A stretch of DNA of 57,323 bases. Origin: Flavobacterium sp. GTDB lineage: Bacteria; Bacteroidota; Bacteroidia; Flavobacteriales; Flavobacteriaceae. Shown in pieces: positions 12,093 through 55,304 of the stretch (positions are counted from its first letter, which is position 1; each line of letters opens with the position of its first letter). Under the pieces are notes generated by a model. That model was not told where the DNA came from. It made no database searches and saw only the letters and a list, made by a program, of their open reading frames with translations. A program made the translations under genes and the position numbers. Location of the stretch: NCBI RefSeq assembly GCF_023151265.1, contig NZ_JAKLJH010000008.1, forward strand, positions 1-57,323. The letters are read 5' to 3'.

Positions 12093-14396
12093 GTGGGTTC
12101 ATTTTATAAAAAAATATTTTTCGTGAAAATAACAAGTTACTTTCCCTATCTATTTATTTTTTATTGTGTTTCAGTAATAGCGCAAGGAGAAGCTAATATT
12201 TGGTATTTTGGAACAAATGCTGGATTAAATTTTAACAACAATCCTCCAACCCCTCTTTTAGATTTGCCTACAGTAGGCATGTTTTCTTCTGAAGGTTGCT
12301 CAACAATAAGCAATAGTGATGGAGATTTATTGTTTTATTCTAATGGTGAAAAAGTTTGGAATAAAAATTTTCAAATTATGTTTAATGGAGATCATTTGTC
12401 TGGGCATAATTCATCTACTCAATCATCTGCTATAATACCTTATCCAGGCACATATAATAGTACTGAAAACAGATTTGATAAGTATTTTTTAGTTACTTTG
12501 GATCAATATATTGAACAAAATCCAAGCATTCCAAATAAAGGCGTTTGTTTTTCGGAAATTGACATGACAATGGACGGAGGGCTTGGAGGCGTAACAACAA
12601 ACAAGAATATTCATCTTTTTGGAACGTCAACTACTGAGAAAGTTTGTGTTGTGCCTCATAGTAATGGTTGTGATTTTTGGGTAATTTGTAAAGTAGTAGA
12701 CAGCTATGATTTTTATGTTTATCACATTTCTAGCAGTGGTTTTAATCTTACACCAGTAGTTAGTACCACATCTGTTTTTACGGAGGCAAGTCCTGGACAA
12801 ATGAAAGTTTCATCAAATCATAAATTACTTTCTTATGTTTTGCCACCTTATAGTGCTAATCCAGGTTTATATGTTTTTAATTTTGATAATGCAACGGGTT
12901 TAATTACTGATAAATTTTCAGACTTAACCAGTGAAAATCACTATGGAGCCGAATTTTCTCCTGATAGTAAAGTATTTTACAAATGTTCTGGAAGTAGAAT
13001 ATATCAATATGATGTATCAGTAAATTCAAATAACGACTTTGTAGCTTCTAAGGTAACAATAATGTCATCAGTTGCTGGCTTACAATCTATGCAGCTAGCA
13101 CCTGATGGGAAAATTTATATTGCAAGATTAATATTAAATGGATTTCCAAATTATATGGGAGTTATTAATAATCCAAATGTTTTAGGTACAGCTTGTAATT
13201 ATGTGCCATTACAGCAATATTTAGGAGGGCGTTTTTGTATGGCGGGATTACCGAATCAATTAAATAGTTTAATTCCTTATAATAATATTTTAATTGAAAA
13301 TGAATATTGTAATGCCTTGCAAGTTTCTTTAGAAAACAATAATAATATTAACAGTTATTCATGGGGTTTGTCTTATGCAAGCGCCCCAGGGACTTTTATA
13401 AGTAGTTCAACTGAAGCCAATCCTATTTTTAGCTTTCCAGATTATAACCAAAATTATATTATTACTTGTAGTGTACTTTCTAATTGCTATAATAAAACTT
13501 ATGAATTACTATATAGGCCAACCGTGCCAACATATATAACGCCCACATTTAATATTTCAACAACCGAATATTGTCAAAATCAAACACCAGATGTGTTGTC
13601 TACAGTTTCTACAGAGGGTATTTTAGGCACTTGGTTTCCAAATAACATAGATACAAGTATTCTGGGTACAACGACCTATACTTTTACTCCAAATCTTAAT
13701 CAAGTTCAATGTGCTTATGCTGTTTCTGTTACAATTACTGTGAATCCGGTAGTTTCTTTTTCTTTTTCAGATGAGGTTGTTTGTAAAAATGGATTAATAG
13801 TTTTTCCTAATACAAATGGAATTATCGGAACTTGGTCTCCAACAAGTGTTAGTAATACTCAAAGCGGAATTTATACTTTTACTCCAAACAACTCATGTAG
13901 TCCATCAGCAACTTGGCAAGTTTTGGTTGTAGAAAGCTTTTCTAATTTAACTATATCTACTTACAATACAACTATAATTGCAAATGTTGACAATGTTAAT
14001 AGTTTGCTTTTGTATCAATTAAATAATGGAAATTTCCAAGATTCTAATACATTTGAAAATGTAAATCCGGGTTGCCATACAGTAAATGTTACAGATATAT
14101 ATGGTTGTACAAATCTGTCTTCTTCGGTTTTTGTTTTTGATTATCCCAAATTTTTCTCGCCAAACAATGACGGATATAATGACTTTTGGAATGTTTTTTT
14201 AGAAAACTCAGATACTACTTTGTCTATTTTTGATCGTTATGGAAAATTGTTAAAACAAATTCGTCAGGATGAAGTAGGTTGGGATGGAACTTATAATGGG
14301 TATAAACTTCCTTCAACAGATTATTGGTTTGTATTAGATTATGATGAATGTGGAATTAAGCGAACTTTTAAATCACATTTTACTTTAATTAGATAA
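12093..14396 (+). CDS. Secreted protein with T9SS type-B (gliding-motility-associated) C-terminal domain; start may be the GTG at 12123
   Basis: Signal peptide then QGEANIWYFG; beta-propeller-like QLAPDGKIY; two GIxGTW..YTFTPN repeats; CTD PKFFSPNNDGYNDFW...IFDRYGKLL...GWDGTYNG.KLPSTDYWF...HFTLIR. Confidence 0.9.
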   Translation: MGSFYKKIFFVKITSYFPYLFIFYCVSVIAQGEANIWYFGTNAGLNFNNNPPTPLLDLPTVGMFSSEGCSTISNSDGDLLFYSNGEKVWNKNFQIMFNGDHLSGHNSSTQSSAIIPYPGTYNSTENRFDKYFLVTLDQYIEQNPSIPNKGVCFSEIDMTMDGGLGGVTTNKNIHLFGTSTTEKVCVVPHSNGCDFWVICKVVDSYDFYVYHISSSGFNLTPVVSTTSVFTEASPGQMKVSSNHKLLSYVLPPYSANPGLYVFNFDNATGLITDKFSDLTSENHYGAEFSPDSKVFYKCSGSRIYQYDVSVNSNNDFVASKVTIMSSVAGLQSMQLAPDGKIYIARLILNGFPNYMGVINNPNVLGTACNYVPLQQYLGGRFCMAGLPNQLNSLIPYNNILIENEYCNALQVSLENNNNINSYSWGLSYASAPGTFISSSTEANPIFSFPDYNQNYIITCSVLSNCYNKTYELLYRPTVPTYITPTFNISTTEYCQNQTPDVLSTVSTEGILGTWFPNNIDTSILGTTTYTFTPNLNQVQCAYAVSVTITVNPVVSFSFSDEVVCKNGLIVFPNTNGIIGTWSPTSVSNTQSGIYTFTPNNSCSPSATWQVLVVESFSNLTISTYNTTIIANVDNVNSLLLYQLNNGNFQDSNTFENVNPGCHTVNVTDIYGCTNLSSSVFVFDYPKFFSPNNDGYNDFWNVFLENSDTTLSIFDRYGKLLKQIRQDEVGWDGTYNGYKLPSTDYWFVLDYDECGIKRTFKSHFTLIR

Positions 14397-14546: not shown

Positions 14547-15419
14547 ATGGCTTCATTAGAAGAAATAAAAATTGAAAATGAGTTTATTTTATTGCGTTTT
14601 CAAAATGATAGTAACGAAACAATTAAAATAGAACGACCAGTAAGTCAAGGCCTTATTCAGTTTCATTTTGGTATTAAAGGAAAGGGAAAATTTATTTTTA
14701 ATCAAGGAAATTACGCTTTGGATTTAAAAGAAGAAAAATCGCTTTTGTTTTACAATCCACAAAAAGAATTGCCAATACATTTAGAATTAGCACCTAACAC
14801 TTGGATAATTTCTGTAATTGTATCTATAAAAAAATTTCATGGGCTATTTTCTTCAGAGGCAGAAAACATCCCTTTTTTAAGTGATGAAAATAAAGATAAA
14901 AAATACTATAAAGAGAACGACATTAGTCCATCTATGTCAATTGTTTTAAGTCAAATTTTTCATTATAATTTAAATTCATTCATTAAAAATTTATATTACA
15001 AAGGTAAAGGTTACGAATTATTAAGTTTATATTTCAATCGTTCCGAAGACCCAAATGCAGAACAATGTCCGTTTTTAATTGATGAAGAAAACGTTTTAAA
15101 AATAAAAAAGGCAAAGGAAATCATCATTGCTAATATGGCTGAACCTCCAACATTAGAAGTTTTATCAGATCAAGTAGGATTAAGTTTAAAAAAATTAAAA
15201 ATAGGTTTTAAACAAATTTATGGTGATACCGTTTATGGATTTTTGTTTGATTATAAAATGGATTATGCACGTCAGTTACTAGATAGTGGTTCCTATAATG
15301 TAAATGAAGTTGGATTAAAAATTGGATATAGTACAGGAAGTCATTTTATAGCTGCTTTTAAAAAGAAATTTGGAACAACACCAAAAAAATATTTGATGTC
15401 GATTAATTCTAACATATAA
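14547..15419 (+). CDS. AraC-family transcriptional regulator (likely start ATG 14547)
   Basis: C-terminal double HTH LKKLKIGFKQIYG...VNEVGLKIGYSTGSHFIAAFKKKFGTTP. Confidence 0.93.
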   Translation: MASLEEIKIENEFILLRFQNDSNETIKIERPVSQGLIQFHFGIKGKGKFIFNQGNYALDLKEEKSLLFYNPQKELPIHLELAPNTWIISVIVSIKKFHGLFSSEAENIPFLSDENKDKKYYKENDISPSMSIVLSQIFHYNLNSFIKNLYYKGKGYELLSLYFNRSEDPNAEQCPFLIDEENVLKIKKAKEIIIANMAEPPTLEVLSDQVGLSLKKLKIGFKQIYGDTVYGFLFDYKMDYARQLLDSGSYNVNEVGLKIGYSTGSHFIAAFKKKFGTTPKKYLMSINSNI

Positions 15420-15446
15420 AAAAAAGAGCTCTAATGCTCTTTTTTT
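15418..15446. terminator. Bidirectional intrinsic terminator
   Basis: aaaaaaaagagc-tctaat-gctctttttt between convergent genes. Confidence 0.75.
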
Positions 15447-16266
15447 AATTATAATAGTGTGCGATAATCACAACTTCATCATCTCCGCCACCCATTTGCA
15501 TTTTAACAGCTCCAGTTCCTCCTGTGTCGGCAACAAACAATATCCCTGCAAACATTGGGCAATAAGTACCTGGGCCTAATTTTATGTAATCATGTCCAGT
15601 TGCGTAGAACTTTTTATCAAATCCTTCGCCGCCACCAGCTCCTAAGGTACTTCCGTTAGTATAAAAGTTACCGCTATATCCCATGGCTCCTGGGTTTCCT
15701 GCAAAATCAATTGGATTTCCATCATAATCTGTTGTAACTATAGCTCCTGCAGGGCCAGTTTGTCTTAAATAAACATAAAATTGAGCAGTACGTGCATGGT
15801 AATCATCTATAGGATTTCCAGATTTATATATTTCGTATGAAATGGCATAATTAATTTCTACAATTGCAGGTCTTGTTAATGTAAAAGTTGATAAACCTGC
15901 ACCTGTTTGGCGTGGCCACCCTGCTTGTGAATATCCAGAACCAACTCCAGTTTGATTTACTTGGTTTGAATCTGCTCCTCCTGTATCTAAAGGATCATTT
16001 AGGTAATTTGCGGGATTAAATAGTACTTCAATATTTGTTGGAGCATTGTTTAAAACCAAGTCTCCATTTGAGTTGGCGTAAACACGAGTGTTTTCTTTAT
16101 CGCCTAAATTTAATGGATTATTAGTTGAATTTAAGCCTTCGATACGGATAGTTGAATTAGTGCCCGAGATGTGTAATTCTTCTTGTGGGTTTGTATTGTT
16201 TACACCTACTTGAGCCAATCCAAATAGTGAAGAAAGTGTAAATAAGAATAAAAATATTTTTTTCAT
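15445..16266 (-). CDS. Secreted beta-rich protein, paralog type C (copy 2)
   Basis: Signal peptide, QVGVNNTNPQEELHISG..TIRIEGLN; closest to 17930..18754 (LGPGTYxPMFA, GTGAVK, DEVxIIAxYxN). Confidence 0.85.
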   Translation of the reverse strand: MKKIFLFLFTLSSLFGLAQVGVNNTNPQEELHISGTNSTIRIEGLNSTNNPLNLGDKENTRVYANSNGDLVLNNAPTNIEVLFNPANYLNDPLDTGGADSNQVNQTGVGSGYSQAGWPRQTGAGLSTFTLTRPAIVEINYAISYEIYKSGNPIDDYHARTAQFYVYLRQTGPAGAIVTTDYDGNPIDFAGNPGAMGYSGNFYTNGSTLGAGGGEGFDKKFYATGHDYIKLGPGTYCPMFAGILFVADTGGTGAVKMQMGGGDDEVVIIAHYYN

Positions 16267-16276
16267 AACTAATTCT

Positions 16277-17047
16277 TTAGTTGTAAATACGAATTTTTAA
16301 ATAATCTGATGAACCTCCAAAACCTACGTAGGTGTCTCTGTTGTTGCCGTCTGCAGTTTCTCCATAAAAAACTAATGAATGATTACCAGCAGGGATGTTT
16401 CCATATCCAACACCGTGAATAAAAGCGTATCCAACAGAGCCTTGTACATAAGAAGTGTAGGCTTCTCCGTGTAAACCATATCTTTTAGAGAGTTCTGTAG
16501 CATCTAAACCATCACTATTTAAATCGATATAGAAATAACAACGTACAGTTCTTGCAGAAACATCGCTGAAAGTAGAGGCAGCGGCAGCGGGTAAAAACTG
16601 GTCAGAAAGGTCAATTGTCATAGCATAGCGAACTTCTATTAATGCTTCTTGAGGACTTGAAAAAGGCACTGAAACTATTTGATTTACGGCAGTAGTTACA
16701 CCAACGGGGTTCGCAACAACAGTTCCATCTCCAAAAGGGCCATTTGGAACAAAATTTGGGATACTAATTAAAAAATTTAAAGGTTCGTTTGTGCCAACAC
16801 CACCTCCAGTTGTAAAGCCAGGAGGGTTTAAGGTTAAGTCTCCATCGCCAGTTACATAAACAGGGGCTAATTTTGGAGCTACATTTAAAACGGGTTCATT
16901 TGTAGAATTTAAACTTTCTATACGAATAGTAGAATTTGTACCTGCAACATGTAAATCTTTTTGTGGATTATCTGTTCCAATTCCTACTTGAGAAAAAGAA
17001 AAATTACAAGACAAAATGAATGCTATATAAAATATTGTTTTCTTCAT
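16277..17047 (-). CDS. Secreted beta-rich protein, paralog type B (copy 2)
   Basis: Signal peptide, QVGIGTDNPQKDLHVAG; closest to 18767..19549 (NFLIxxPNF, VGFGGxxDYLKxRxYN). Confidence 0.85.
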   Translation of the reverse strand: MKKTIFYIAFILSCNFSFSQVGIGTDNPQKDLHVAGTNSTIRIESLNSTNEPVLNVAPKLAPVYVTGDGDLTLNPPGFTTGGGVGTNEPLNFLISIPNFVPNGPFGDGTVVANPVGVTTAVNQIVSVPFSSPQEALIEVRYAMTIDLSDQFLPAAAASTFSDVSARTVRCYFYIDLNSDGLDATELSKRYGLHGEAYTSYVQGSVGYAFIHGVGYGNIPAGNHSLVFYGETADGNNRDTYVGFGGSSDYLKIRIYN

Positions 17048-17062
17048 AATTACAGTAGGGGA

Positions 17063-17818
17063 TTAGTATAAACGAATAAAAATAGAGTCTGGTCCACCAG
17101 CAAATCTAACAAATGTATTTCTGTTAGCTGACCCCGAACATACTGTTCCGTAAAATCTTACGGTGTGTGTGCCTGGAGTTAAATACATGTAAGTTGTTCC
17201 GCTATTATAAATGTATCCCGTAGCAGCATCTGGAGCAGCTGCAGGGTTTGTTGCAATATCATTTCTGTTAAAATAGCATTTCGAACTTGGAGCGTATCTT
17301 CTAGTTGTTGAGGTTAATGTAGGTGTGTTTAGTGTAAAAAAATTAGTTATGTTTCTGGCGTATGGGTCTTTAACAATAGTTAGTAGATTGTCTTGAAAAA
17401 CTTCCACACTCAAAGAGTATTTTATTTCTAGTGTAGTGTTTCTGGCAACTGTAAAAGTGTAAGAAGTTATTTCAACAGTTTCATAACCATCATTTGGTAA
17501 TTGAGCTGTAGTAATAGACACTGTTCCATTAACAGCGGCAGTTGTGTAGGCATCTGAACCATCACTGTTTTGATAAGCAGAAACTTTTAACGTTAAATCG
17601 CCATTGTGGTCTACATATAAAGGATATGTTTTATCAACACCTCCGCCGTTAAATGAATTATTTGTAGAATTTAATCCGTCAACTCGAATTGTACCTGTTT
17701 GTGAGCCTAAATGAAGTGTTTGCTGAGGATTGTCTTTGTTGATTCCTACACCGCTAACTTGTGCGTTTGAGGTTATTCCAATAAAAAGAAATATCAGAAA
17801 AATAATTTTTAATTTCAT
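17063..17818 (-). CDS. Secreted beta-rich protein, paralog type A (copy 2)
   Basis: Signal peptide, GVGINKDNPQQTLHLGS; closest to 19591..20319 (TYPLYVD, NSDGSDA, KCY, RFYG). Confidence 0.85.
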   Translation of the reverse strand: MKLKIIFLIFLFIGITSNAQVSGVGINKDNPQQTLHLGSQTGTIRVDGLNSTNNSFNGGGVDKTYPLYVDHNGDLTLKVSAYQNSDGSDAYTTAAVNGTVSITTAQLPNDGYETVEITSYTFTVARNTTLEIKYSLSVEVFQDNLLTIVKDPYARNITNFFTLNTPTLTSTTRRYAPSSKCYFNRNDIATNPAAAPDAATGYIYNSGTTYMYLTPGTHTVRFYGTVCSGSANRNTFVRFAGGPDSIFIRLY

Positions 17819-17929
17819 GCTCTACCTTTTCCTCAAAAATCTAAATATTTTTATGATATTCAATATTTTGCATTAAATAATCGACAAAACACATTATTTA
17901 TCGATAAAAAGCAAATTATTTTTAAAAAT

Positions 17930-18754
17930 TTAGTTAAAATAGTACGCAATTATTTGAACCTCATCCATTCCTACTCCTAAATATAATTTTACAGCACCTG
18001 TTCCAGCAGTATCTCCAACGGCAAGTTGTGCAGCAAACATAGGAGTGTAAGTGCCTGGTCCTAAAACCACATAATCAGATGCTGTATTTCTGTAGTTCCT
18101 CCATTCACCTTGATTTCCCGCAATATTATTGTAAAATTGACCATTAATAGCTAATAAACCTCCAAGTTCCATGCAGTTACTTGTAATACACCAAGGTCCG
18201 CCATTTATAGGATTACCATAATAATCGTTAATTACAGCTGGTCCTAAATAATTATTTTGTCTAAAATACATTGCTGTTTGAACAATTCTAGCTCTAAAAT
18301 CATCAATACGAGAGGTTGCAGTAACATTTTTTCCAACATTCCAGCTTACAGAGTAATTAACTTCAACAATAGCAGGTTTAGTTAATGTGAATGATATTGC
18401 AGCACCTCCAATTGGTATTCCGCCTTGACTAAAACCAGCACCGCTACCTACTTGGTTTATTAATGAAGTTGGGTCTTGAACGTCAACTAAATAATTTTCT
18501 GAGTCAAACAGAATTTCAACATTGTCGGTTAAAGTTCCTAAAACTAAATCTCCATCTGCATCAACATAAACGGGTGTTGAAGAAGCTGGTCCTAAATTAT
18601 TAATATTGTTAGGGGTGTTTAATCCATCAATTCTAATAGTAGAATTTGAACCTCCTACGTGTAATTCTTCTTGTGGATTTGTTGTATTTACACCTACTTG
18701 TCCATTAACTGAAATGCAAAATGTAAAAATAATTGGGGTAAAATATTTTCTCAT
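17930..18754 (-). CDS. Secreted beta-rich protein, paralog type C (copy 1)
   Basis: Signal peptide, QVGVNTTNPQEELHVGG..TIRIDGLN. Confidence 0.85.
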   Translation of the reverse strand: MRKYFTPIIFTFCISVNGQVGVNTTNPQEELHVGGSNSTIRIDGLNTPNNINNLGPASSTPVYVDADGDLVLGTLTDNVEILFDSENYLVDVQDPTSLINQVGSGAGFSQGGIPIGGAAISFTLTKPAIVEVNYSVSWNVGKNVTATSRIDDFRARIVQTAMYFRQNNYLGPAVINDYYGNPINGGPWCITSNCMELGGLLAINGQFYNNIAGNQGEWRNYRNTASDYVVLGPGTYTPMFAAQLAVGDTAGTGAVKLYLGVGMDEVQIIAYYFN

Positions 18755-18766
18755 GATTGTAGGGGT

Positions 18767-19549
18767 TTAATTATATACACGTAGTTTTAAATAATCTGTT
18801 GCACCACCAAATCCAACACTTGTAAATGTGCTTGGTGGGTCTTGAACTTTTCCGAAGAAATGGATTGAATGTGTTCCGGGTGGTAATGTAGCATATCCTT
18901 GGCTATTCATATAAGGATAACCTAAAGAGCCTCCTGCAACTGAGCAATAAAATTGTCCTTTATTTCCATATTCAATAGCTTTTTCTGCAGGACTTAAACC
19001 GTCGTTGTTGATGTCAAAACAAAAGAATGTTTCAATGGTTCTAGTCTTGCTATCATTGATGTAAGCTAAACTTGGTGTCAGCATATTTGAGCCAGAAATA
19101 ACTAAAGTAACTCCATGCTTAACTTCTACAGTACAAGCAGCAGGAACCGTAAATGTTACACTGTAAATAAATCCTTCAACGCCTTCTTGTGTTAAGTCGC
19201 TATTAATTATTCTTCCTAAGCTGTTATAAGGTGCTGGTAACCCATCAACATTATCAGGAATAAAATTAGGAACATCAATTAAAAAGTTAATGGGTAAATT
19301 GCCATTACCACTTCCTCCAGCTGTATAATTTGGAGGGGTTAATGTTAAATTTCCATTAGAATTTACATAAACACGAGCATTTTTTATTCCATCATTTAAC
19401 ACATTGTTTGTGCTGCTTAATCCTTCTATTCTAATAGTTGATGTATTTCCGGAAACGTGAAGTTCTTCTTGTGGGTTTGTAGTTCCTATACCAACTTGAC
19501 TAAAGCTTATAGAAGTACAAAACAATAAACATAAGTATTGATTTTTCAT
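18767..19549 (-). CDS. Secreted beta-rich protein, paralog type B (copy 1)
   Basis: Signal peptide, QVGIGTTNPQEELHVSG..TIRIEGL. Confidence 0.85.
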   Translation of the reverse strand: MKNQYLCLLFCTSISFSQVGIGTTNPQEELHVSGNTSTIRIEGLSSTNNVLNDGIKNARVYVNSNGNLTLTPPNYTAGGSGNGNLPINFLIDVPNFIPDNVDGLPAPYNSLGRIINSDLTQEGVEGFIYSVTFTVPAACTVEVKHGVTLVISGSNMLTPSLAYINDSKTRTIETFFCFDINNDGLSPAEKAIEYGNKGQFYCSVAGGSLGYPYMNSQGYATLPPGTHSIHFFGKVQDPPSTFTSVGFGGATDYLKLRVYN

Positions 19550-19590
19550 AATTTTGGGGATTAAAGAATTATAATACTGTTATAAAGTAT

Positions 19591-20319
19591 TTAGTGAAGC
19601 CTGAATAGTAATGAGTCGTTACCTCTTGCAAATTTTACGCAAGTAGCCAAACCTGTATTTGCAGTGGAGTTTGTAATTCCAGATGAAACCTCACCATAAA
19701 AACGAATTACATAAGATCCTGCAGCGGGTAATGAAATGTAAGAAGTACTAGTGTTAAACAGTTTTCCTGTTTCTCCATCGGTGCTTCCACCTGTGTAACA
19801 TTTTCCAGATTGTCCATATTTTCTGCCTGCTCCATTCACCTGAAAATAGGTGTTTACTCGTCTAGCTCTTCTGTCTGAAATAGCTGTTTCGGCAGGATTT
19901 AAAAAAACATCCAGACTAACATTGTATTTTACTTCAAGAATGGATGCTCTATTAACAGCAATGGTAAAATTAAAAAGTTCACCCACAATTAAACCGTCAT
20001 TATCACCTGCGGGAAGTGTTACAACAGACCCTGGTAAAATAGCATGATCTAAAGCATCAGAGCCATCACTATTATATAAAGGTTTGAATTCTAATGTTAA
20101 ATTTCCATTTCCATCTACATAAAGAGGGTATGTAGCTGTTCCGCCACCATTATATGTAGAATTTGTTGCGTTTAATCCATCAACACGTATAGTTCCGTTT
20201 GTAGAACCTAAATGAAGAGCTTGTTGTGGGTTGTCTTCGTTGATGCCTACTCCTTGCACTTGAGAAAATGCTGAAGTTGAAACAAACCAAATTAGTAATT
20301 TAATGTAATGTTTCTCCAT
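19591..20319 (-). CDS. Secreted beta-rich protein, paralog type A (copy 1)
   Basis: Signal peptide, GVGINEDNPQQALHLGS..TIRVDGLN. Confidence 0.85.
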   Translation of the reverse strand: MEKHYIKLLIWFVSTSAFSQVQGVGINEDNPQQALHLGSTNGTIRVDGLNATNSTYNGGGTATYPLYVDGNGNLTLEFKPLYNSDGSDALDHAILPGSVVTLPAGDNDGLIVGELFNFTIAVNRASILEVKYNVSLDVFLNPAETAISDRRARRVNTYFQVNGAGRKYGQSGKCYTGGSTDGETGKLFNTSTSYISLPAAGSYVIRFYGEVSSGITNSTANTGLATCVKFARGNDSLLFRLH

Positions 20320-20535
20320 AATTCAACGATTTTAATTATTAATAATGCAATAATTATTCCACTAAATTAAATATTATTTAATTTAAAAAAAATTTTATTG
20401 TTAATAATATTGTAATTTTAACAAAAATTCGATAAAATGTATATTTTTTCCGATAAGTAGTTGAATTTGCTTTAAGATTAATCCTACGGCATTATTTTTT
20501 TGATAATTAAATAGTATTTTTGAAAAAAAAAGAAA

Positions 20536-21561
20536 ATGAAAAAAGGAGTACTATTAATTAACTTAGGTTCGCCAGATAGTCCTGAACCAAAAGATGTTAG
20601 AAAATATTTAGATGAATTTTTAATGGATGAACGCGTTATAGATGTTCCTTATTTACTTAGAGCGCTTTTGGTAAAAGGAATTATTTTGAATACTCGTCCA
20701 AAAAAATCGGCTAAAGCGTATAAAAAAATTTGGTGGGAAGAAGGTTCGCCATTAATTGTTTTATCAAAACGTTTACAAAATAAAGTTAAAGAGCAAGTTA
20801 GTATTCCTGTTTCTTTAGCCATGCGTTACGGAAATCCAAGTATTGAATTCGGTTTAAAAGAATTACACAATCAAGGTGTAGATGAGGTTTTATTAATTCC
20901 ATTATATCCTCAGTTTGCTATGGCAACTACTGAAACTATTTTGGTGTTAGCCGAAGAAATTCGAAAAAAACAATTTCCAAATATGGAATTTACGGTTCTT
21001 CCTGCTTTTTACAACCAACCTGATTATGTTCGTGATTTGTCTAATTCTATTAAATCGGCTTTAGATAATTTTAAATCAGATTATTTATTGTTTTCTTATC
21101 ATGGAGTTCCAGAGCGACACATTAAAAAATCGGATGTAACAAAATCGCATTGTAAAATAGATGGAAGTTGTTGCAATACGCCATCAAAAGCACACGAGTT
21201 TTGCTACCGCCATCAATGTTATGAAACAACTAAGCAAGTAGCCGAATTTTTAGGTTTGGAAGAAGGAAAATACAGTACCTCTTTTCAATCTCGTTTAGGT
21301 CGCGATCCTTGGTTACAACCTTATACCGATGCTACCATTGATGGATTAGCTCAAAAAGGCATTAAAAATTTAGCTGTTGTAACTCCTGCGTTCGTTTCGG
21401 ATTGTTTAGAAACTTTAGAAGAAATTGGAATGGAAGCTGCTAACAGTTTCAAAGAAAATGGAGGGGAACATTTCTTATCTATCCCTTGTTTGAACGACAG
21501 TGAAGATTGGGTAAAAACCATGAGCCGTTGGATTGACCAATGGGCTTTTCAAAATCAATAA
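20536..21561 (+). CDS. hemH: Ferrochelatase
   Basis: LINLGSPDSP, AMRYGNPS, LFSYHGVP, FQSRLG..WLQPYT, FVSDCLETLEEI. Confidence 0.98.
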   Translation: MKKGVLLINLGSPDSPEPKDVRKYLDEFLMDERVIDVPYLLRALLVKGIILNTRPKKSAKAYKKIWWEEGSPLIVLSKRLQNKVKEQVSIPVSLAMRYGNPSIEFGLKELHNQGVDEVLLIPLYPQFAMATTETILVLAEEIRKKQFPNMEFTVLPAFYNQPDYVRDLSNSIKSALDNFKSDYLLFSYHGVPERHIKKSDVTKSHCKIDGSCCNTPSKAHEFCYRHQCYETTKQVAEFLGLEEGKYSTSFQSRLGRDPWLQPYTDATIDGLAQKGIKNLAVVTPAFVSDCLETLEEIGMEAANSFKENGGEHFLSIPCLNDSEDWVKTMSRWIDQWAFQNQ

Positions 21562-33000: not shown

Positions 33001-33834
33001 TTAAAAAAATATTCCAGTTCCTAAAGTTACAAAATTATAGCTAGGTGAAGCAATTTTTAAGTGTTCATATCCTAATGAGAAAAAATAATTCTTTTTATGA
33101 TATTTACCTCTAAGTTCGAATGATTTTACGGGTAATCCATTTATTTTACTCCAAATCATAGCACTATTAAAACTTATGTTTTTTATTGCAAAAACATCGG
33201 TATGTAAACCATAAGAAAAGCCAGCTTTTTGAACATCATTTCCAACATAGGTTGCGCCAAGTGTCCAGCCTAAATTGAATTTTTTAAATCGAATTCTATC
33301 GTAAGCCACGTTAAATTGAAATAATGATAGGTTTGAAAAACGATTTGTTAGCATGTTTTTTTCCAATAGTTCACGATAATCGGCTTGCACATAAAAATAT
33401 TGAAATGGTCTAAATTTTGCTTTTAAATGATTTCCGAATGAATTATTATTGCTATATAAAAAATGGTTTTCAACATCAAATCGCATTACATTTTCATATT
33501 CAATACTGTCATTTTCTTTTTGAAAATTCCCTGATTCGCCATCGAAATAAGGATATTTAGAAAGCGAATTATACAAATGATTTTCACTTCTGTAATCGCC
33601 AATGGTAGAATAAAAACTCACATATAAAAATCCTTCAACAAGTAATCCTGCTAATCCAAAGTCATTTGAAGAAGAACTTCTGGAAGAACCTGAACTCGAG
33701 GAATTGCTACTTGAACTCGAAGAACTCGAAGATTTTCCAGATTTTAATTCACTTTTAGACTTGTCGATTTTCTGAGAAAATGAACTATTTAAAGTTAAAA
33801 TAGTAAACAGTACAAATAATGTTTTTTTCATCAA
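33001..33834 (-). CDS. Hypothetical exported protein with Ser-rich linker and probable beta-barrel
   Basis: Signal peptide, poly-Ser tract, alternating aromatic strands, C-terminal GIFF. Confidence 0.7.
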   Translation of the reverse strand: MMKKTLFVLFTILTLNSSFSQKIDKSKSELKSGKSSSSSSSSSNSSSSGSSRSSSSNDFGLAGLLVEGFLYVSFYSTIGDYRSENHLYNSLSKYPYFDGESGNFQKENDSIEYENVMRFDVENHFLYSNNNSFGNHLKAKFRPFQYFYVQADYRELLEKNMLTNRFSNLSLFQFNVAYDRIRFKKFNLGWTLGATYVGNDVQKAGFSYGLHTDVFAIKNISFNSAMIWSKINGLPVKSFELRGKYHKKNYFFSLGYEHLKIASPSYNFVTLGTGIFF

Positions 33835-41871: not shown

Positions 41872-42708
41872 CTAAATTTCTTTTTGGAACGAATATCCTA
41901 AAATGGTTTCCACTTTTTCACTAGAAATAATTTTACCTTTCGATTCCGAATCTTCCGCAAAGGTAGGCAATGGCAAATGGAATATTTCAGCTTTTTTGTG
42001 ATAATATGCTTTACGTGTTGGATGTTGAGGTGCGACAGCGTTGAAGGTTTGGTTCCATTCCCAATTGTCATCTCGAGCGAAGTCGAGCGACTTTTCTATA
42101 ATTCCAATACAATCTTCTCTTTGAATCATATTCACCGGCGCATCCGGATTTTCGACATTCGTTCTTCCTGCTAAAAATTTTACTGGATGACGATCATCGC
42201 CAAGCAAACCACCAAAACGAATTACGGTAGTTTTGAAATATGAATTCGATTGTAAAAGAGTTTCTGCAATAACTAATTGTTTGCCACTTTCGGTATCGGG
42301 ATCGGGTTTTGTTTCTTCGGTAATTTCAACAATTGGAAAACTATCACCATAAACCGAAGTCGAACTTACAAAAACAACTTTCTGAATCCCTGATTTTTCG
42401 ATAAACGGAATCAACGTTTTTACTTTATTTACGAATGTCATTTCGTTAGAAGTCGAAACTTCTCTTCTCAATCCAGGCGGAATATCAATAATCAAAACAT
42501 CGGTTTCTTTTAGAAAATCTTCCATATTTCCAATGATTTGATGTTCATCTAATTGAATTTGGAAAGGTAAAATCCCAGCATTTTTCAACACGTCTAATTT
42601 ACTTTCCGAAGTCGTAGAACCTTTTACTTCGTAACCTTTTGCAAGCAATGATTTGGCTAAAGGTAAACCCAACCAACCGCAGCCGAGTATGGAGATTTTT
42701 ATTCCCAT
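41872..42708 (-). CDS. NAD(P)-dependent oxidoreductase (atypical SDR, YeeZ-like)
   Basis: ILGCGWLG, VSSTSVYG, IRFGGL. Confidence 0.88.
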   Translation of the reverse strand: MGIKISILGCGWLGLPLAKSLLAKGYEVKGSTTSESKLDVLKNAGILPFQIQLDEHQIIGNMEDFLKETDVLIIDIPPGLRREVSTSNEMTFVNKVKTLIPFIEKSGIQKVVFVSSTSVYGDSFPIVEITEETKPDPDTESGKQLVIAETLLQSNSYFKTTVIRFGGLLGDDRHPVKFLAGRTNVENPDAPVNMIQREDCIGIIEKSLDFARDDNWEWNQTFNAVAPQHPTRKAYYHKKAEIFHLPLPTFAEDSESKGKIISSEKVETILGYSFQKEI

Positions 42709-43163
42709 TTGTATTTTTTTATGTAGGTATTTGTTGGAATGTCGTGTTCGTAGTAAGTAACATATTTAAAACCAGCTTTAGTTAATGTAATTGAATCTGG
42801 TTGGATTTCTTCGTTTAAATAAATATGACTATTTTCTGGATTTTTTTTATCAAAAACGACATTGAAAAACTTTTTTAAATCTTTCTTACTAAAATTATTC
42901 TCATTTGATTCGGAAACAAATCTTTGATTTTTATAATAAAAGTAATATCTCAAATCACTTGTTTTTCCATGATTCTTAATACTGCTAGTTATGCCAATTG
43001 TTTTACCACTATAATTTTTGATTTTATTATTATATTCTTCTTTATTAAATTTTGAAAAAATCATAATAAATATGAAGAACAATATAATTAGGAGGAAAAC
43101 AATCTTCCCCTCATTTTCTTTCAAAAAAGTTGAATAACTTTTCTTTTCTCTTTCTTCTTTCAT
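42699..43163 (-). CDS. Hypothetical single-TM membrane protein
   Basis: One hydrophobic helix followed by a small beta domain; very AT-rich. Confidence 0.65.
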   Translation of the reverse strand: MKEEREKKSYSTFLKENEGKIVFLLIILFFIFIMIFSKFNKEEYNNKIKNYSGKTIGITSSIKNHGKTSDLRYYFYYKNQRFVSESNENNFSKKDLKKFFNVVFDKKNPENSHIYLNEEIQPDSITLTKAGFKYVTYYEHDIPTNTYIKKYKWE

Positions 43164-45605: not shown

Positions 45606-46229
45606 TTATTTGTTTAATTCGGTTTGTAATGCTTCGATAAATAAGCCTATATGATAACCATCAATTAACCCATGATGTGCAGTAACTGAAAGCGCCATCG
45701 ATTTCTTTCCGTTTTCTTCAACCAGTTTTCCATAGGAAATTTTCGGACAACTGTCGGCAACGCCAAAATTTCTAGAATGCGTTAATCCAGTAAAATTGAT
45801 CCAAGGCACAGCCGAAAAATGAATAATGTTTTCAGGATACTCTCTCGTTAAAATTCCAGTAGTCGTTTGGATTCTTTCAATTTCTTTTTGGACTATTTTA
45901 TTAAATTCGTGAATATCTTCATGAAATTTCATAAACGAAAAACCAAAAGTCTTATCTTCTCTCATAATAGTAGCAGAAGCGTCAATTTCATTGTATAGAA
46001 ACACATCATCACCTTCGATTCTGTATCTAAAATTTTCAATTTGATTTACCGCTGCAAGAGTCTTATGAAGATAATATACAAAAAATGAAATTTGCATTGC
46101 CTTCGCTTTTTCATAAGCAATCGTACAATCAATGGCTGTTGTAATTCCAAAAAACGGTTCTTGGAAGGCTGAGAAGAATTCCAAATGTCCTTTTCGGTTC
46201 CAGTTGTTTAAATCAATTTTTGTTTTCAA
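45606..46229 (-). CDS. CatA-like (chloramphenicol) O-acetyltransferase family
   Basis: WNRKGH, SAVPWINFT, PKISYGK, HHGLIDGYH. Confidence 0.88.
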   Translation of the reverse strand: MKTKIDLNNWNRKGHLEFFSAFQEPFFGITTAIDCTIAYEKAKAMQISFFVYYLHKTLAAVNQIENFRYRIEGDDVFLYNEIDASATIMREDKTFGFSFMKFHEDIHEFNKIVQKEIERIQTTTGILTREYPENIIHFSAVPWINFTGLTHSRNFGVADSCPKISYGKLVEENGKKSMALSVTAHHGLIDGYHIGLFIEALQTELNK

Positions 46230-51906: not shown

Positions 51907-52572
51907 ATGAAAACTATATCCTCTGTAGTAGAACAATACATTAAATCGAAGCCTTTTTTATTGAGTTCACTTTCGCAAGGCATTATCAATTTAACATCTT
52001 TAGCTCGCATTATGATGCCAGAATTGGAAATGCATCTAGGAAAAGATGTAAAACAAGGTGCCGTTGTAATGTCGTTAAAAAGACTTTCTGAAGAATTAGA
52101 TTTCAAAATCAACTATAAAATTTCAAAAGTTTTAAAGAATATTGGAGAAATAACGGTTCGTTCTTCGTTAACAGATTTCACTTATGTAATTTCGGACACT
52201 CTTTTAGATAATCAAGCCAAATTGATTTCTGAAATTAATAAGCAACAAGATATTTTTTACACTTCGTCTCGTGGTGTTAATGAAACTAATATCGTTACGA
52301 GTACTTCGATTGAACCAATGGTGGAAGCTATTTTCAAAAACGAGAAGTTAACTCACAAAATTGAAAATTTATCTTCTATAACGGTTAAATTACCACAGGA
52401 AAACATTTCAACTCCAGGGGTTTATTACTATATTTTCCAAAGATTGGCTTGGGAAGGAATTATCATTCATGAAGTAATTTCAACTACAAATGAATTTACA
52501 ATTATAGTTAGTGATGATCAAATTGATGTAGCATTTAAGGTAATAAAAGACCTAAAAAATGTATTTGATTAA
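51907..52572 (+). CDS. ACT-like regulatory protein with putative N-terminal HTH
   Basis: GIINLTSLAR...GAVVMSLKR; C-terminal TPGVYYYIFQRLAWEGI..EVIST.NEFTIIV; no kinase motifs; -7 box TATCTTTG at 51877-51884. Confidence 0.7.
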   Translation: MKTISSVVEQYIKSKPFLLSSLSQGIINLTSLARIMMPELEMHLGKDVKQGAVVMSLKRLSEELDFKINYKISKVLKNIGEITVRSSLTDFTYVISDTLLDNQAKLISEINKQQDIFYTSSRGVNETNIVTSTSIEPMVEAIFKNEKLTHKIENLSSITVKLPQENISTPGVYYYIFQRLAWEGIIIHEVISTTNEFTIIVSDDQIDVAFKVIKDLKNVFD

Positions 52573-52679: not shown

Positions 52680-55304
52680 TTGAAAAGCACTATATTTAAA
52701 TACTCTCTTGTCGTAGGTTTTTTGTTTTTTTTAATAGCCTGTTCTGTTAAAAAAGATAAGTTTATTAACCGAAATTTTCACGCTGTTACTACAGAATACA
52801 ACGTTTTATATAACGGAAATATTGCATTAGATAAAGGGTTAGAGGAATTGAAAACCACTTATCAAGATAATTTTTGGGAGATTTTACCTGTTGAGCGAAT
52901 GCCAAATAATGAAGACGCTTTACTGCCAGGTCAAACAAAAAATCAAAATTTTGAGCGTGCCGAAGAAAAAGCAGTAAAAGCCATTCAAAAACACTCTATG
53001 AATATTGCGGGTACTGAGAAAAATCCACAAATGGATGAAGCTTATTTGTTACTTGCCAAAGCGCGTTACTATGACAATCGATTTATCCCTTCACTAGAGT
53101 CGTTAAATTACATTTTGTATAAATATCCATTAAGTGATCGCATTTATCATGCTAAAGTATGGCGTGAAAAAGTTAACATTCGATTGGATAATGAAGATGT
53201 TGCTATCAAAAATCTTAAATTACTTTTAAAAGATAAAAAAATTGAAGGACAAGATTTAGCTGATGCAAACGCTATGTTGGCGCAAGCTTACATGAATGTT
53301 CAGGTTAAAGATACCGCAATTGCTTCGTTAAAAGTAGCAAAAGAAGCCACAAAAAATAATGAAGAAAAAGCACGTTATACTTTTATTTTAGGACAATTAT
53401 ATGAAAGCCTAAATTATCAAGATAGTGCTTATGCTGCATTTCAGGAGGTAATAGAGATGAATAGAAAATCGCCAAGACGATACGTTATTCAATCGCATGC
53501 AAAACAAGCTCTTCAATTTGATTATAAAAAAGGCGATACGTTAGCTTTTGTTGAAAAGTTCACTAAACTTTTAGAAGACAGAGAAAATCGCCCTTATTTA
53601 GATATTTTACATCATCAAATGGGAATTTTTTATGACAAACAAGGTTTAAATGAAAAGGCAAAATTTTACTACAATAAATCAATAAAATCAGTTTCTCAAG
53701 ACAGTTATTTGATTTCTTCAAACTATAGAAATATTGGAGAAATTTATTTTAAAGAAGCCCAATACAAAACAGCTGGTAAATATTACGATAGTACTTTATT
53801 ACGATTAAACGATAAAACTAGAGAATATCGTAAGATTAAGAAAAAAAGAGATAATTTAGAAGATGTTATTAAGTATGAAACCATTGCACAACAAAATGAC
53901 AGTATATTAAATGTTGTTGCAATGAATGATTTAGATAGAAAAACATACTACGAAAACTATATCGCTAAATTAAAAATTGAAGACGAGAAAAAGGCTAAAA
54001 TAGCGGCTGAAAAAGCAGAAAAAGAAGCAAATATTCAAGCCAGTCTTAACACTCCAGGAACTAACGATAAAAATGTAAATATATCTGGTAAAAAAGATGT
54101 CCAAAGCATGGATATTGCAGGACCATCAATATTACCTCCAGGAATGGGAGCAGATAATAGCAACTTCTATTTTTATAATCCAGTAGCGGTAGAGTTTGGA
54201 AAAAAAGAGTTTCAATCCAGATGGGGAAAACGTCCATTAAGTGATAATTGGAGATTGTCTTCTAGTGGATTAAAAAATACTGATAATGAAAATACTGATA
54301 GTCTTTCAATTGACCAAAAAGACATTTCAGATAAAGAAGAATTAAATCCAAAATACGATCCGCAATTTTATTTGGCTCAAATTCCAACAGACCAAAAATT
54401 AATTGATAGTTTGGCAAAAGATAGAAACTTTGCGTATTATCAGTTAGGATTAATTTATAAGGAAAAATTCAAAGAATACGAATTAGCGGCTTCTCGCTTA
54501 GAGCAATTATTGAAGAACAAACCCGAAGAACGTTTGGTGCTTCCGGCGATGTACAATTTGTACAAAATATATCAGCAAATTTCGCCTTCAAAAGCAACTG
54601 ATATGAAGCAACAAATTTTAGCAAAATATCCTGATAGTCGTTATGCTCAAATATTAAACAATCCAGAAGTTGAAGTTACCGATAGCGATAACCCAGAAAT
54701 CGTATTCAATACATTATACAAGAAGTTTGAAAACAATCAGCTGAGAGAAGTTTTTGTAGAAGTAGATGAAGCTATTTTTAAATTTGCTGGAGAAGAATCG
54801 CTTCCTAAATTTGAAATGCTAAAAGCTAAAGTTGCAGGAAGATTAAAAGGGGTTGAAGAATATAAAAAAGCTCTAAATTTTGTAGCCTTAACTTATCCAA
54901 ATGCCGAAGAAGGAAAACAAGCCGAAAAAATGGTACAAACCGAAGTGCCGTTAATTGAAGCGCTTGATTTTGGTGTGTCACAACCAACGAGTTACAAAAT
55001 TATCTTCCCTAAAACGTATCCTTACGAAAAAGAGGTTAAAAACTTGACAGATAAGGTTGCTAAGTATATCAAAGACACTAATGCAGTTGCATTAAAATCA
55101 TCTGAAGATATTTATACACTGACTGATAATTTTATTGTAATTCATGGTTTTGATAATAAAGATGCTGCCATTTCAGTGTTGTCAGTATTACAATTGCATA
55201 AAAATTATAAACTAACCGACAAAGTTTATATTATTTCAACTGAGGATTACAAGATTGTACAAATGAAAAAGAAGTTGGAAGAATGGATTTTGTTAAATAA
55301 ATAA
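52680..55304 (+). CDS. sprE: T9SS/gliding TPR lipoprotein SprE (PorW)
   Basis: Lipobox LIAC, YNVLYNG, KAVKAIQKHSM, TPRs, FYFYN..WGKRPLSDNWR; upstream of bactofilin and atp genes. Confidence 0.85.
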   Translation: MKSTIFKYSLVVGFLFFLIACSVKKDKFINRNFHAVTTEYNVLYNGNIALDKGLEELKTTYQDNFWEILPVERMPNNEDALLPGQTKNQNFERAEEKAVKAIQKHSMNIAGTEKNPQMDEAYLLLAKARYYDNRFIPSLESLNYILYKYPLSDRIYHAKVWREKVNIRLDNEDVAIKNLKLLLKDKKIEGQDLADANAMLAQAYMNVQVKDTAIASLKVAKEATKNNEEKARYTFILGQLYESLNYQDSAYAAFQEVIEMNRKSPRRYVIQSHAKQALQFDYKKGDTLAFVEKFTKLLEDRENRPYLDILHHQMGIFYDKQGLNEKAKFYYNKSIKSVSQDSYLISSNYRNIGEIYFKEAQYKTAGKYYDSTLLRLNDKTREYRKIKKKRDNLEDVIKYETIAQQNDSILNVVAMNDLDRKTYYENYIAKLKIEDEKKAKIAAEKAEKEANIQASLNTPGTNDKNVNISGKKDVQSMDIAGPSILPPGMGADNSNFYFYNPVAVEFGKKEFQSRWGKRPLSDNWRLSSSGLKNTDNENTDSLSIDQKDISDKEELNPKYDPQFYLAQIPTDQKLIDSLAKDRNFAYYQLGLIYKEKFKEYELAASRLEQLLKNKPEERLVLPAMYNLYKIYQQISPSKATDMKQQILAKYPDSRYAQILNNPEVEVTDSDNPEIVFNTLYKKFENNQLREVFVEVDEAIFKFAGEESLPKFEMLKAKVAGRLKGVEEYKKALNFVALTYPNAEEGKQAEKMVQTEVPLIEALDFGVSQPTSYKIIFPKTYPYEKEVKNLTDKVAKYIKDTNAVALKSSEDIYTLTDNFIVIHGFDNKDAAISVLSVLQLHKNYKLTDKVYIISTEDYKIVQMKKKLEEWILLNK

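What the first reader, a model, noticed from the sequence alone, without database searches (positions are those of the whole stretch)
15445..20319. Duplicated A-B-C triplet of secreted fibre-like paralogs: candidate heterotrimeric adhesin or fibril system
Seen: six intact 242-274 aa genes share one architecture: signal peptide, VGI/VxxxNPQxxLHxxG-TIRI/VxxL shaft motif, YVxxxGD/NLxL neck, and a beta-rich head (EV/IxY, D..AR, PGT/S, terminal aromatic strand). They are not six random copies. In transcription order they run A1-B1-C1 then A2-B2-C2, and each type is much closer to its counterpart in the other triplet than to its neighbours (A: NSDGSDA, KCY; B: NFLIxxPNF, VGFGGxxDYLKxRxYN; C: LGPGTYxPMFA, GTGAVK). 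Gaps are 10-41 bp within triplets and 111 bp between them. No T9SS CTD, lipobox or recombinase is present. Inference: the VGIGTxxP motif resembles trimeric phage-fibre shafts and the head may be a C1q/TNF/BclA-like jelly roll. Conserved three-gene order suggests an obligate 1:1:1 heterotrimer, with two cassettes giving alternative or mixed binding specificities and an unknown export or anchoring route.
Basis: partly seen in the sequence, partly recalled or inferred. Interest (0 to 1): 0.85.

Follow-up and report, generated by a model that had tools for sequence, protein, structure and literature searches.

The report
Three-gene C1q-like fibre-tip cassettes in flavobacteria
Six neighbouring genes form two copies of a three-gene A-B-C cassette that flavobacteria kept, gained and lost only as a whole in every intact case examined; each gene encodes a short, likely exported protein predicted to end in a TNF/C1q-type head, and the three different chains likely assemble into one mixed trimer that would bind surface sugars, a possible bacterial parallel to the three-chain head of the human immune protein C1q.

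Summary
In detail: six intact paralogs run A1-B1-C1-A2-B2-C2 (same type 41-45% identical, cross-type 27-34%), under purifying selection. Each has a signal peptide, one fibre-shaft unit with the Bdellovibrio MAT capping-loop motif, and a head predicted as a TNF/C1q jelly roll (best matches Pgp3, Z 10.5; lectin PLTL, Z 10.3). A, B and C are three separate clades. In 49 non-redundant genome loci and 37 B-seeded metagenome loci they occur only as whole, ordered A-B-C units (3, 6 or 9 genes), apart from contig ends and one frameshifted B. A sister type D occurs singly or in pairs, so three is not forced by the family. The window's two cassettes are old, separate lineages, each found alone in other genomes. 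The predicted trimer-facing strands carry conserved opposite charges (A +1, B +2, C -2), but that test was post hoc and did not generalise to a second triplet lineage. The complex predictor was unavailable, so the 1:1:1 heterotrimer is inferred (about 0.6), not modelled. Ligand, export route and anchor are unknown. All annotations seen say 'hypothetical'; nine literature searches found no description. Verdict: real, undescribed, a new variant of trimeric TNF-tipped fibres.

The parts
19591..20319 (-). A1, type A subunit of cassette 1 (242 aa): signal peptide about 1-19, shaft unit and neck about 20-77, predicted TNF/C1q-like head about 78-242
   Evidence: clade A SH-aLRT 100
18767..19549 (-). 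B1, type B subunit of cassette 1 (260 aa), with a Gly/Pro-rich insert between neck and head and an acidic loop in the head; fold inferred by homology to A and C, not modelled
   Evidence: clade B SH-aLRT 99
17930..18754 (-). C1, type C subunit of cassette 1 (274 aa), predicted TNF/C1q-like head about 75-274 with a long inserted loop holding two Cys
   Evidence: clade C SH-aLRT 100
17819..17929 (.). 111-bp AT-rich spacer between the two cassettes; no terminator-like site found in it
17063..17818 (-). A2, type A subunit of cassette 2 (251 aa)
16277..17047 (-). B2, type B subunit of cassette 2 (256 aa)
15445..16266 (-). C2, type C subunit of cassette 2 (273 aa)
15419..15446 (-). Terminator-like hairpin with T tail directly after C2, between the convergent C2 and AraC genes
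   Evidence: the only such site in 15300-20700 (shuffles give 3.5 on average, so it rests on position, not on rarity)
20320..20535 (.). AT-rich divergent intergenic region between A1 and ferrochelatase, likely holding the cassette promoter
   Evidence: contigs of three RNA-labelled runs end at 20327-20341 (weak hint)

Best explanation
Each A-B-C cassette encodes three related, signal-peptide-bearing chains that likely co-assemble into one short 1:1:1 heterotrimeric fibre tip, with a predicted intertwined beta-shaft and a predicted TNF/C1q-type head that would bind glycans in the clefts between chains. Steps: (1) shown: three old paralog types are inherited as an ordered, tightly spaced unit, once, twice or three times per genome; (2) inferred from sequence: Sec export and signal-peptide cleavage before a Gln; (3) predicted: TNF/C1q jelly-roll head and a three-chain shaft motif, both of which are trimeric in solved relatives; (4) inferred: the chains have diverged at the trimer-facing strands so that only A+B+C packs, which explains why no gene is lost or duplicated alone; (5) inferred by analogy to PLTL and Bd2439: three non-equivalent pockets (A-B, B-C, C-A) recognise carbohydrate on surfaces or other cells; (6) the second cassette is an independent paralogous trimer with other head loops, so likely another specificity; (7) unknown: how the trimer crosses the outer membrane and whether it is anchored, shed or stays periplasmic.
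For: Gene content: 25 of 401 genus genomes match; 23 have 3 or 6 matches, and the two with 1 are a long distant relative and a divergent non-ABC triplet. Of 71 non-redundant loci, 49 hold an A, B or C gene: 47 show only ordered ABC units (one cut by the flank, which has 9 genes in its genome) and 2 are cut by contig ends with the partner's stub visible; two apparent exceptions were start-codon artefacts. B-seeded metagenome scan: 37 of 39 loci hold B; A lies directly upstream in 33 of 37 (28 in the locus, 5 as a C-terminal stub) and the other 4 start inside B; C follows in 34 of 37 and the other 3 end at or just after B. At least five different multi-cassette combinations exist, all of whole cassettes. 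A, B, C are each one clade (SH-aLRT 100/99/100) with mirrored subtrees. Sister type D occurs as 1 or 2 genes, an internal contrast. Fold: A1 head matches Pgp3 C-terminal domain (Z 10.5, rmsd 2.8, 118 aligned) and PLTL (Z 10.3, 2.8, 126); C1 head matches PLTL (Z 9.2, 3.2, 129); the lists are dominated by TNF, C1q and BclA trimers. Shaft: B profile hits MAT chain 8ojn (E 0.009) on the capping-loop motif. PLTL and Bd2439 bind sugar between adjacent protomers. Net charge on the non-core face of the predicted C and H strands: A +1 in 55 of 61, B +2 in 61 of 61, C -2 in 56 of 61, D 0 in 19 of 21; an outer-face control varies freely; 21 triplets left out of that set and the basal triplet L109 (+1/+2/-1) repeat it.
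Against: Strict co-inheritance is also expected if three homotrimers are each needed for one function. The charge columns were chosen after viewing the conservation table, their position at the trimer interface rests on recalled TNF topology without coordinates, and the rule does not generalise: a second ordered triplet lineage gives 0/+1/+2 or +1/+1/+2, and single-gene relatives range from -2 to +2. Related genomes are not independent samples. Head Z-scores of 9-10.5 are only moderately above the 7-8 that the tool says is common, and non-TNF jelly rolls (birnavirus VP2 Z 9.8, Ena2A Z 8.6) are close behind. The shaft is poorly modelled as a monomer (pLDDT mostly under 60). One metagenome B is frameshifted (L129). 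No T9SS CTD, lipobox, S74 chaperone or dedicated transporter gene supports surface display.
Confidence: 0.6

Rival explanations
1. A, B and C each form a homotrimer, and the three homotrimers are jointly needed because they stack or dock into one larger structure or act in one pathway.
For: Explains strict co-inheritance equally well. Solved bacterial TNF-tipped relatives are homo-oligomers, and PLTL stacks two trimers. Type D, often a lone gene, must work without B or C.
Against: All three chains have the same length class and the same single shaft unit, with no docking extension specific to one type. BBB would put +6 and CCC -6 on the predicted inner faces (post hoc).
Confidence: 0.2
2. Three independent homotrimeric lectins with different specificities that simply share an operon.
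For: Tandem arrays of 1, 2, 3 and 4 genes occur in the wider family (D, DD, L094, L092, L120), so local duplication is common.
Against: Independent genes should sometimes be lost or duplicated singly. None was in 49 genome loci and 37 metagenome loci apart from one frameshift, across at least five whole-cassette gains, while the cassette as a whole is patchy (22 of 401 genus genomes).
Confidence: 0.1
3. The proteins are not surface adhesins but periplasmic or released jelly-roll proteins (structural subunits of a co-polymer, as in Bacillus Ena fibres, or soluble lectins), whatever their stoichiometry.
For: No known outer-membrane export signal or anchor; they lack the long shafts and N-terminal domain of longer relatives; Ena subunits appear in the fold list (Z 8.6 and 7.7, rmsd 4.8-5.3).
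Against: The same shaft unit plus head ends longer fibre-like proteins of 350-714 aa, and the best-fitting solved folds are adhesin or lectin tips.
Confidence: 0.1

Closest known systems
Bdellovibrio MAT (mosaic adhesive trimer) fibres, NS74 members Bd2439 and Bd2734 (PMC10769870)
   Same: Signal peptide, capping-loop motif in the shaft, TNF-like C-terminal tip without S74 chaperone; Bd2734 tip matched at Z 7.5 and 7.2.
   Different: MATs are typically about 1,000 aa with a conserved 130-aa N-terminal domain and are described as symmetric trimers (no 'heterotrimer' in the main text). These are about 250 aa, have one shaft unit, and come as three fixed paralogs.
Complement C1q globular head (PMC4484229)
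   Same: Jelly-roll head of the C1q/TNF type (C1q chains at Z 7.6-7.8); three different chains A, B, C form one heterotrimer in C1q, as inferred here. That the three C1q genes lie in a tandem cluster is recalled, not checked.
   Different: No collagen stalk, no Pfam C1q match, about 10% identity; any heterotrimer here would be convergent.
TNF-like bacterial lectins PLTL and BC2L-C N-domain (PMC12914763)
   Same: Best or second-best structural match for both modelled heads (Z 10.3 and 9.2); sugar pocket between protomers.
   Different: Homo-oligomers of a head alone, without shaft; 8-12% identity; binding residues were not shown to be conserved here.
Chlamydial Pgp3 C-terminal domain and Bacillus BclA / F-BclA tips
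   Same: Secreted or surface TNF-like trimer heads on a stalk (Z 10.5, 8.4, 7.9; F-BclA passages).
   Different: Single-gene homotrimers with coiled-coil or collagen stalks (stalk type of Pgp3 from entry titles and recall).
Long Bacteroidota fibre-like hypothetical proteins with the same shaft repeat (ESM Atlas clusters labelled PF26696 PTL_trimer or C1q)
   Same: Same shaft repeat and, in several, the same terminal shaft-neck-head module; feature score 0.88, a lead only.
   Different: Longer, often with an extra N-terminal domain; those seen in loci were single genes.

Membership tests
MAT fibres (Bdellovibrio) | Capping-loop consensus motif in a beta-helical shaft | tested here: met
   Motif in all six proteins; profile hits to 8ojn (E 0.009) and Bd2133 (E 0.19) on that motif; consensus from the paper
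MAT fibres (Bdellovibrio) | Conserved beta-rich domain of about 130 aa right after the signal peptide | tested here: not met
   Only about 58 aa separate signal peptide and head, and they begin with the shaft motif
MAT fibres (Bdellovibrio) | Long fibre, typically about 1,000 aa | tested here: not met
   242-274 aa
MAT fibres (Bdellovibrio) | Symmetric homotrimer on the cell surface | not testable with these tools
   Complex predictor unavailable; localisation needs experiment
TNF/C1q structural superfamily | Jelly-roll head of TNF/C1q topology | tested here: met
   Predicted models of A1 and C1; top matches Z 10.5 and 9.2, lists dominated by TNF, C1q and BclA; type B not modelled
TNF/C1q structural superfamily | Trimer about a three-fold axis | not testable with these tools
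   No complex model obtained
C1q-domain proteins (Pfam C1q, TNF, BclA_C) | Sequence match to the family profile | tested here: not met
   No Pfam hit at E<=0.001 for any of the six, none of these families up to E 0.1
C1q proper | Collagen Gly-X-Y stalk | tested here: not met
   No collagen repeat in sequence or Pfam
T9SS cargo | Type A or B C-terminal domain | tested here: not met
   Neither CTD family hits the six; the neighbouring 767-aa gene does hit CHU_C. The genome has SprA
S74-chaperoned tail-fibre proteins | C-terminal S74 autoproteolytic chaperone | tested here: not met
   No Peptidase_S74 hit; the chains end in the last head strand
Type V pilins of Bacteroidota | Lipoprotein signal (lipobox Cys); feature recalled | tested here: not met
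   0 of 185 rows with a lipobox-like Cys; Gln just before the shaft motif in 172 of 173 rows scored
Ena endospore-appendage fibres | Jelly-roll subunit that polymerises through an N-terminal connector | tested here: inconclusive
   Ena2A Z 8.6 at rmsd 4.8, below the TNF-type matches; polymerisation not tested

The most novel reading that the evidence does not exclude
Flavobacteria have evolved, independently of animals, an obligate C1q-like heterotrimer: a homotrimeric TNF-tipped fibre gene triplicated into an ordered A-B-C cassette whose product has three different inter-chain glycan pockets. Cells vary specificity by adding whole cassettes. The same family may have made this homo-to-hetero step more than once (a second ordered triplet lineage in L110-L112 and L036, and younger triplets in L094 and L120), and the trimer reaches its site of action without any recognised T9SS or lipoprotein signal.
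Probability: 0.5. Interest if true: 0.8.

Novelty: new variant of a known kind. Interest (0 to 1): 0.65.

Why it matters
The solved bacterial TNF/C1q-tipped fibres and lectins that came up here are single-gene homo-oligomers. A three-gene heterotrimer would be a bacterial parallel to C1q, able to read asymmetric glycans with three different pockets. Because lone (D), paired and fixed-triplet lineages coexist in one family of 250-aa proteins, it offers a small, directly testable natural series for how a homotrimer becomes an obligate heterotrimer. It also poses a concrete export question for Bacteroidota proteins that have a signal peptide but no T9SS CTD.

Tried and rejected
Inter-chain covariation (MI with APC, 61 triplets, effective number 40): top inter-chain scores did not exceed the intra-chain background and no strand-pairing pattern appeared; uninformative. 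Charge complementarity as a general rule: failed outside the ABC lineage. Recent tandem duplication or gene conversion between the cassettes: rejected. Phage origin: no match in 50,697 phage records; 6 viral-contig hits cover only the shaft motif; PHROGs best E 0.0014. Dedicated partner or transporter gene: none; flanks are housekeeping genes that differ by lineage. Link to haem synthesis: the cassette sits between ferrochelatase and AraC-hemA in Flavobacterium but next to rpoC/DUF3467 and other genes in marine relatives, so the position is treated as an insertion site. Sigma-70 promoter scan: at chance level, 25 sites against 21.8. The hemH control for dN/dS was mis-extracted in 2 of 3 relatives and is not used. 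Expression: RNA-labelled contigs cover parts of all six genes and bridge four of the five junctions, but no silent stretch or DNA run was laid, so transcription is not shown. A second ESM Atlas search did not complete. Rfam: nothing in the window. Earlier scan findings: none.
Full report
Observation. The six ORFs, their order, gaps and type motifs are as reported. Same-type pairs are 41-45% identical and the 12 cross-type pairs 27-34%. The genome (2.76 Mb, 96% complete) has no other full-length copy; a motif scan finds one more shaft-motif protein of about 720 aa on contig C168. The host is a Flavobacterium: A1 is 100% identical over its length to the protein of named record L042. All six genes are under purifying selection against three relatives (dN/dS 0.019-0.125 in 18 of 18, dS near saturation). 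A terminator-like hairpin follows C2. Contigs of RNA-labelled runs cover parts of all six genes, bridge A1-B1, B1-C1, A2-B2 and B2-C2, and in three runs of two studies stop 8-22 bases upstream of the A1 start; no DNA or silent control was laid, so this is only a hint.

Anatomy. Each chain has a signal peptide ending before a Gln (Gln within six residues of the shaft motif in 172 of 173 rows scored; that this is typical of Bacteroidota signal-peptidase-I substrates is recalled), no lipobox (0 of 185 rows) and no Pfam, NCBIfam or PHROGs match at E<=0.001. The first 55-60 mature residues carry the motif that the MAT paper calls a capping loop of trimeric beta-helical fibres (PMC10769870, passages and section 14 read); profile searches hit MAT chains 8ojn (E 0.09 and 0.009) and Bd2133 (E 0.19) on this motif only. 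AlphaFold2 monomer models of A1 and C1 have confident heads (pLDDT mostly 80-95) and weak shafts (mostly under 60), as expected if the shaft folds only with partners; B was not modelled. Structure searches give TNF/C1q-type jelly rolls: for A1, Pgp3 C-terminal domain Z 10.5 (rmsd 2.8, 118 aligned), PLTL Z 10.3 (2.8, 126), EDA 8.7, BclA 8.4, C1q 7.8, MAT tip Bd2734 7.5, with birnavirus VP2 (9.8) and Ena2A (8.6) among them; for C1, PLTL 9.2 (3.2, 129) and Pgp3 9.0. Foldseek gives the same class of fold with weaker discrimination. Longer relatives of 350-714 aa end in the same shaft-neck-head module behind extra shaft repeats, so A, B and C are the minimal tip of a fibre family. Database names seen are all 'hypothetical' or 'uncharacterized'.

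Do they come in ordered threes? In 401 genomes of the genus, 25 match: 15 with three matches, 8 with six, 2 with one (only six candidates were scored per genome, so the loci of all 24 other genomes were fetched). The two singles are a 405-aa distant relative and one member of a divergent triplet; one of the threes is also a divergent triplet; 22 of 401 carry true ABC. Adding 67 loci from the species collection (best 80 of 91 hits kept), 93 loci were examined; 71 remained after dropping one without a hit and those sharing an identical C-terminus with an earlier locus. Of these, 49 hold an A, B or C gene: ABC 34, ABCABC 9, ABCABCAB 1 (nine genes in its genome), ABC with D genes 3, and two cut by contig ends with the neighbour's stub visible. 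Two apparent gaps were alternative start codons. A scan of metagenomes seeded with type B alone gave 39 loci, 37 with B: A precedes it in 33 and the other 4 begin inside B; C follows in 34 and the other 3 end at or just after B. Against the pattern: one B is frameshifted (L129) and one C is chimeric at a contig end (L128); L133 repeats L093. In an even draw of 401 genomes of the order, 3 carry ABC, so the cassette is patchy as a whole but never partial in what was searched.

History. In a tree of 166 rows (of 234, after removing those over 80% identical), A, B and C are each one clade (SH-aLRT 100, 99, 100; no bootstrap) and their subtrees mirror each other; pairwise identities correlate across types (Spearman 0.61-0.69), which linkage alone would also give. 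The window's cassettes belong to different lineages, each found alone in other genomes. Multi-cassette genomes combine lineages in at least five ways (1+2, 2+3, 4+3, 3+3, 1+1+2), and one genome has two unlinked cassettes. All three genes pick the same reference lineage in 48 of 59 triplets (six of the 48 are the references themselves); the 11 mixed calls are mostly far from every reference. A basal triplet in another genus keeps the order (L109). Outside this clade the family is flexible: type D occurs as one or two genes, usually behind a 382-aa Ig-containing gene; there are singles, a loose set of four (L092), young triplets (L094, L120) and a second ordered triplet lineage in family f7 (L110-L112, weakly joined by L036 and L027), separate from ABC in the tree. 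No transporter or anchor gene travels with ABC; the genome has SprA, but the proteins lack a CTD.

Mechanism. A fold that is trimeric in its solved relatives, a shaft motif from three-chain helices, and exactly three co-retained paralogs point most simply to a 1:1:1 trimer. Direct modelling was not possible. As an indirect check I took the alternating non-core positions of the strands that correspond to TNF strands C and H, which line the trimer axis (strand assignment from the model's strand order and recalled TNF topology; PMC5529296 passage states that an edge packs on the inner sheet of the neighbour). Net charge there is +1 in 55 of 61 A, +2 in 61 of 61 B, -2 in 56 of 61 C and 0 in 19 of 21 D; an outer-face control is variable. 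The 61 triplets are those of 82 that passed motif, length and duplicate filters; the 21 dropped give A +1 in 18, B +2 in 21, C -2 in 17. The columns were picked after seeing the conservation table, and the rule fails in the second triplet lineage and in several singles, so this is modest support. Covariation was uninformative. Glycan binding is inferred only from the best structural matches: PLTL and Bd2439 bind sugars between protomers (PMC12914763 passages). I put the heterotrimer at 0.6, jointly required homotrimers at 0.2, independent lectins at 0.1 and a non-adhesive role at 0.1.

Comparison and novelty. It works like an NS74 MAT tip or a TNF-like lectin, but fails MAT membership on length and N-terminal domain, and fails C1q, T9SS-cargo, S74 and type V pilin tests. 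C1q is the known heterotrimer of this fold (PMC4484229 passages); the F-ENA paper (PMC12357932 passages) describes C1q-like tips and predicted hetero-hexamers but no three-paralog head. Nine searches of the held library returned no description of this cassette or of a bacterial TNF/C1q heterotrimer; subscription papers are not covered, and the MAT paper's supplementary tables of fibres in other bacteria were not read and could list relatives. Verdict: a real, undescribed, strictly three-gene module; new variant of a known kind; interest 0.65, and 0.8 if the heterotrimer is shown.

Noticed in passing
window 12093-14396 (+): 767-aa protein with a type B T9SS CTD (CHU_C) inserted between hemA and the AraC gene; a homolog sits at this place in L032/L042 but not in other close relatives such as L018, L021, L043, so it is a recent lineage-specific insertion unrelated to the cassette.
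   Followed up: partly
L080:4834-5979 and 14 other marine loci: A 377-402-aa signal-peptide protein with a C-terminal Big_9 domain and paired Cys, no CTD detected, nearly always directly upstream of type D genes; its N-terminal domain also begins a 1,250-aa SprB-repeat protein nearby. Candidate partner or anchor for D.
   Followed up: partly
L110:6668-8994, L111:6555-8885, L112:5120-7465: Second ordered three-gene lineage of the same family in family f7, separate from ABC in the tree; possible independent heterotrimer.
   Followed up: partly
L109:6127-8262: Basal A-B-C triplet whose B-position gene lacks the B-specific inserts and scores equally as A or B; a possible intermediate in subunit specialisation.
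   Followed up: partly
G789:C13:192711-200183: Three cassettes in a row (nine genes), two of lineage 1 and one of lineage 2.
   Followed up: yes
G000:C168:2783-4963 (-): A separate shaft-motif protein of about 720 aa in the same genome whose C-terminus looks by eye like an S74-type chaperone with coiled coil; not scanned.
   Followed up: no
L036:5525-8122: 865-aa shaft-motif protein with collagen repeats (Pfam Collagen) directly behind a divergent triplet.
   Followed up: no
window 2005-24383: Ordinary haem-biosynthesis cluster (hemB, hemF, hemE, hemD, hemC, hemA, hemH, UPF0093 gene) interrupted by Trk potassium-uptake genes and by the cassettes.
   Followed up: no
window 45606-46229 (-): Chloramphenicol acetyltransferase family gene (Pfam CAT, E 3e-29) among housekeeping genes.
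   Followed up: no
window 52680-55304 (+), 51907-52572 (+), 33001-33834 (-), 42699-43163 (-): ORFs of 874, 221, 277 and 154 aa with no Pfam match at E<=1e-6.
   Followed up: no
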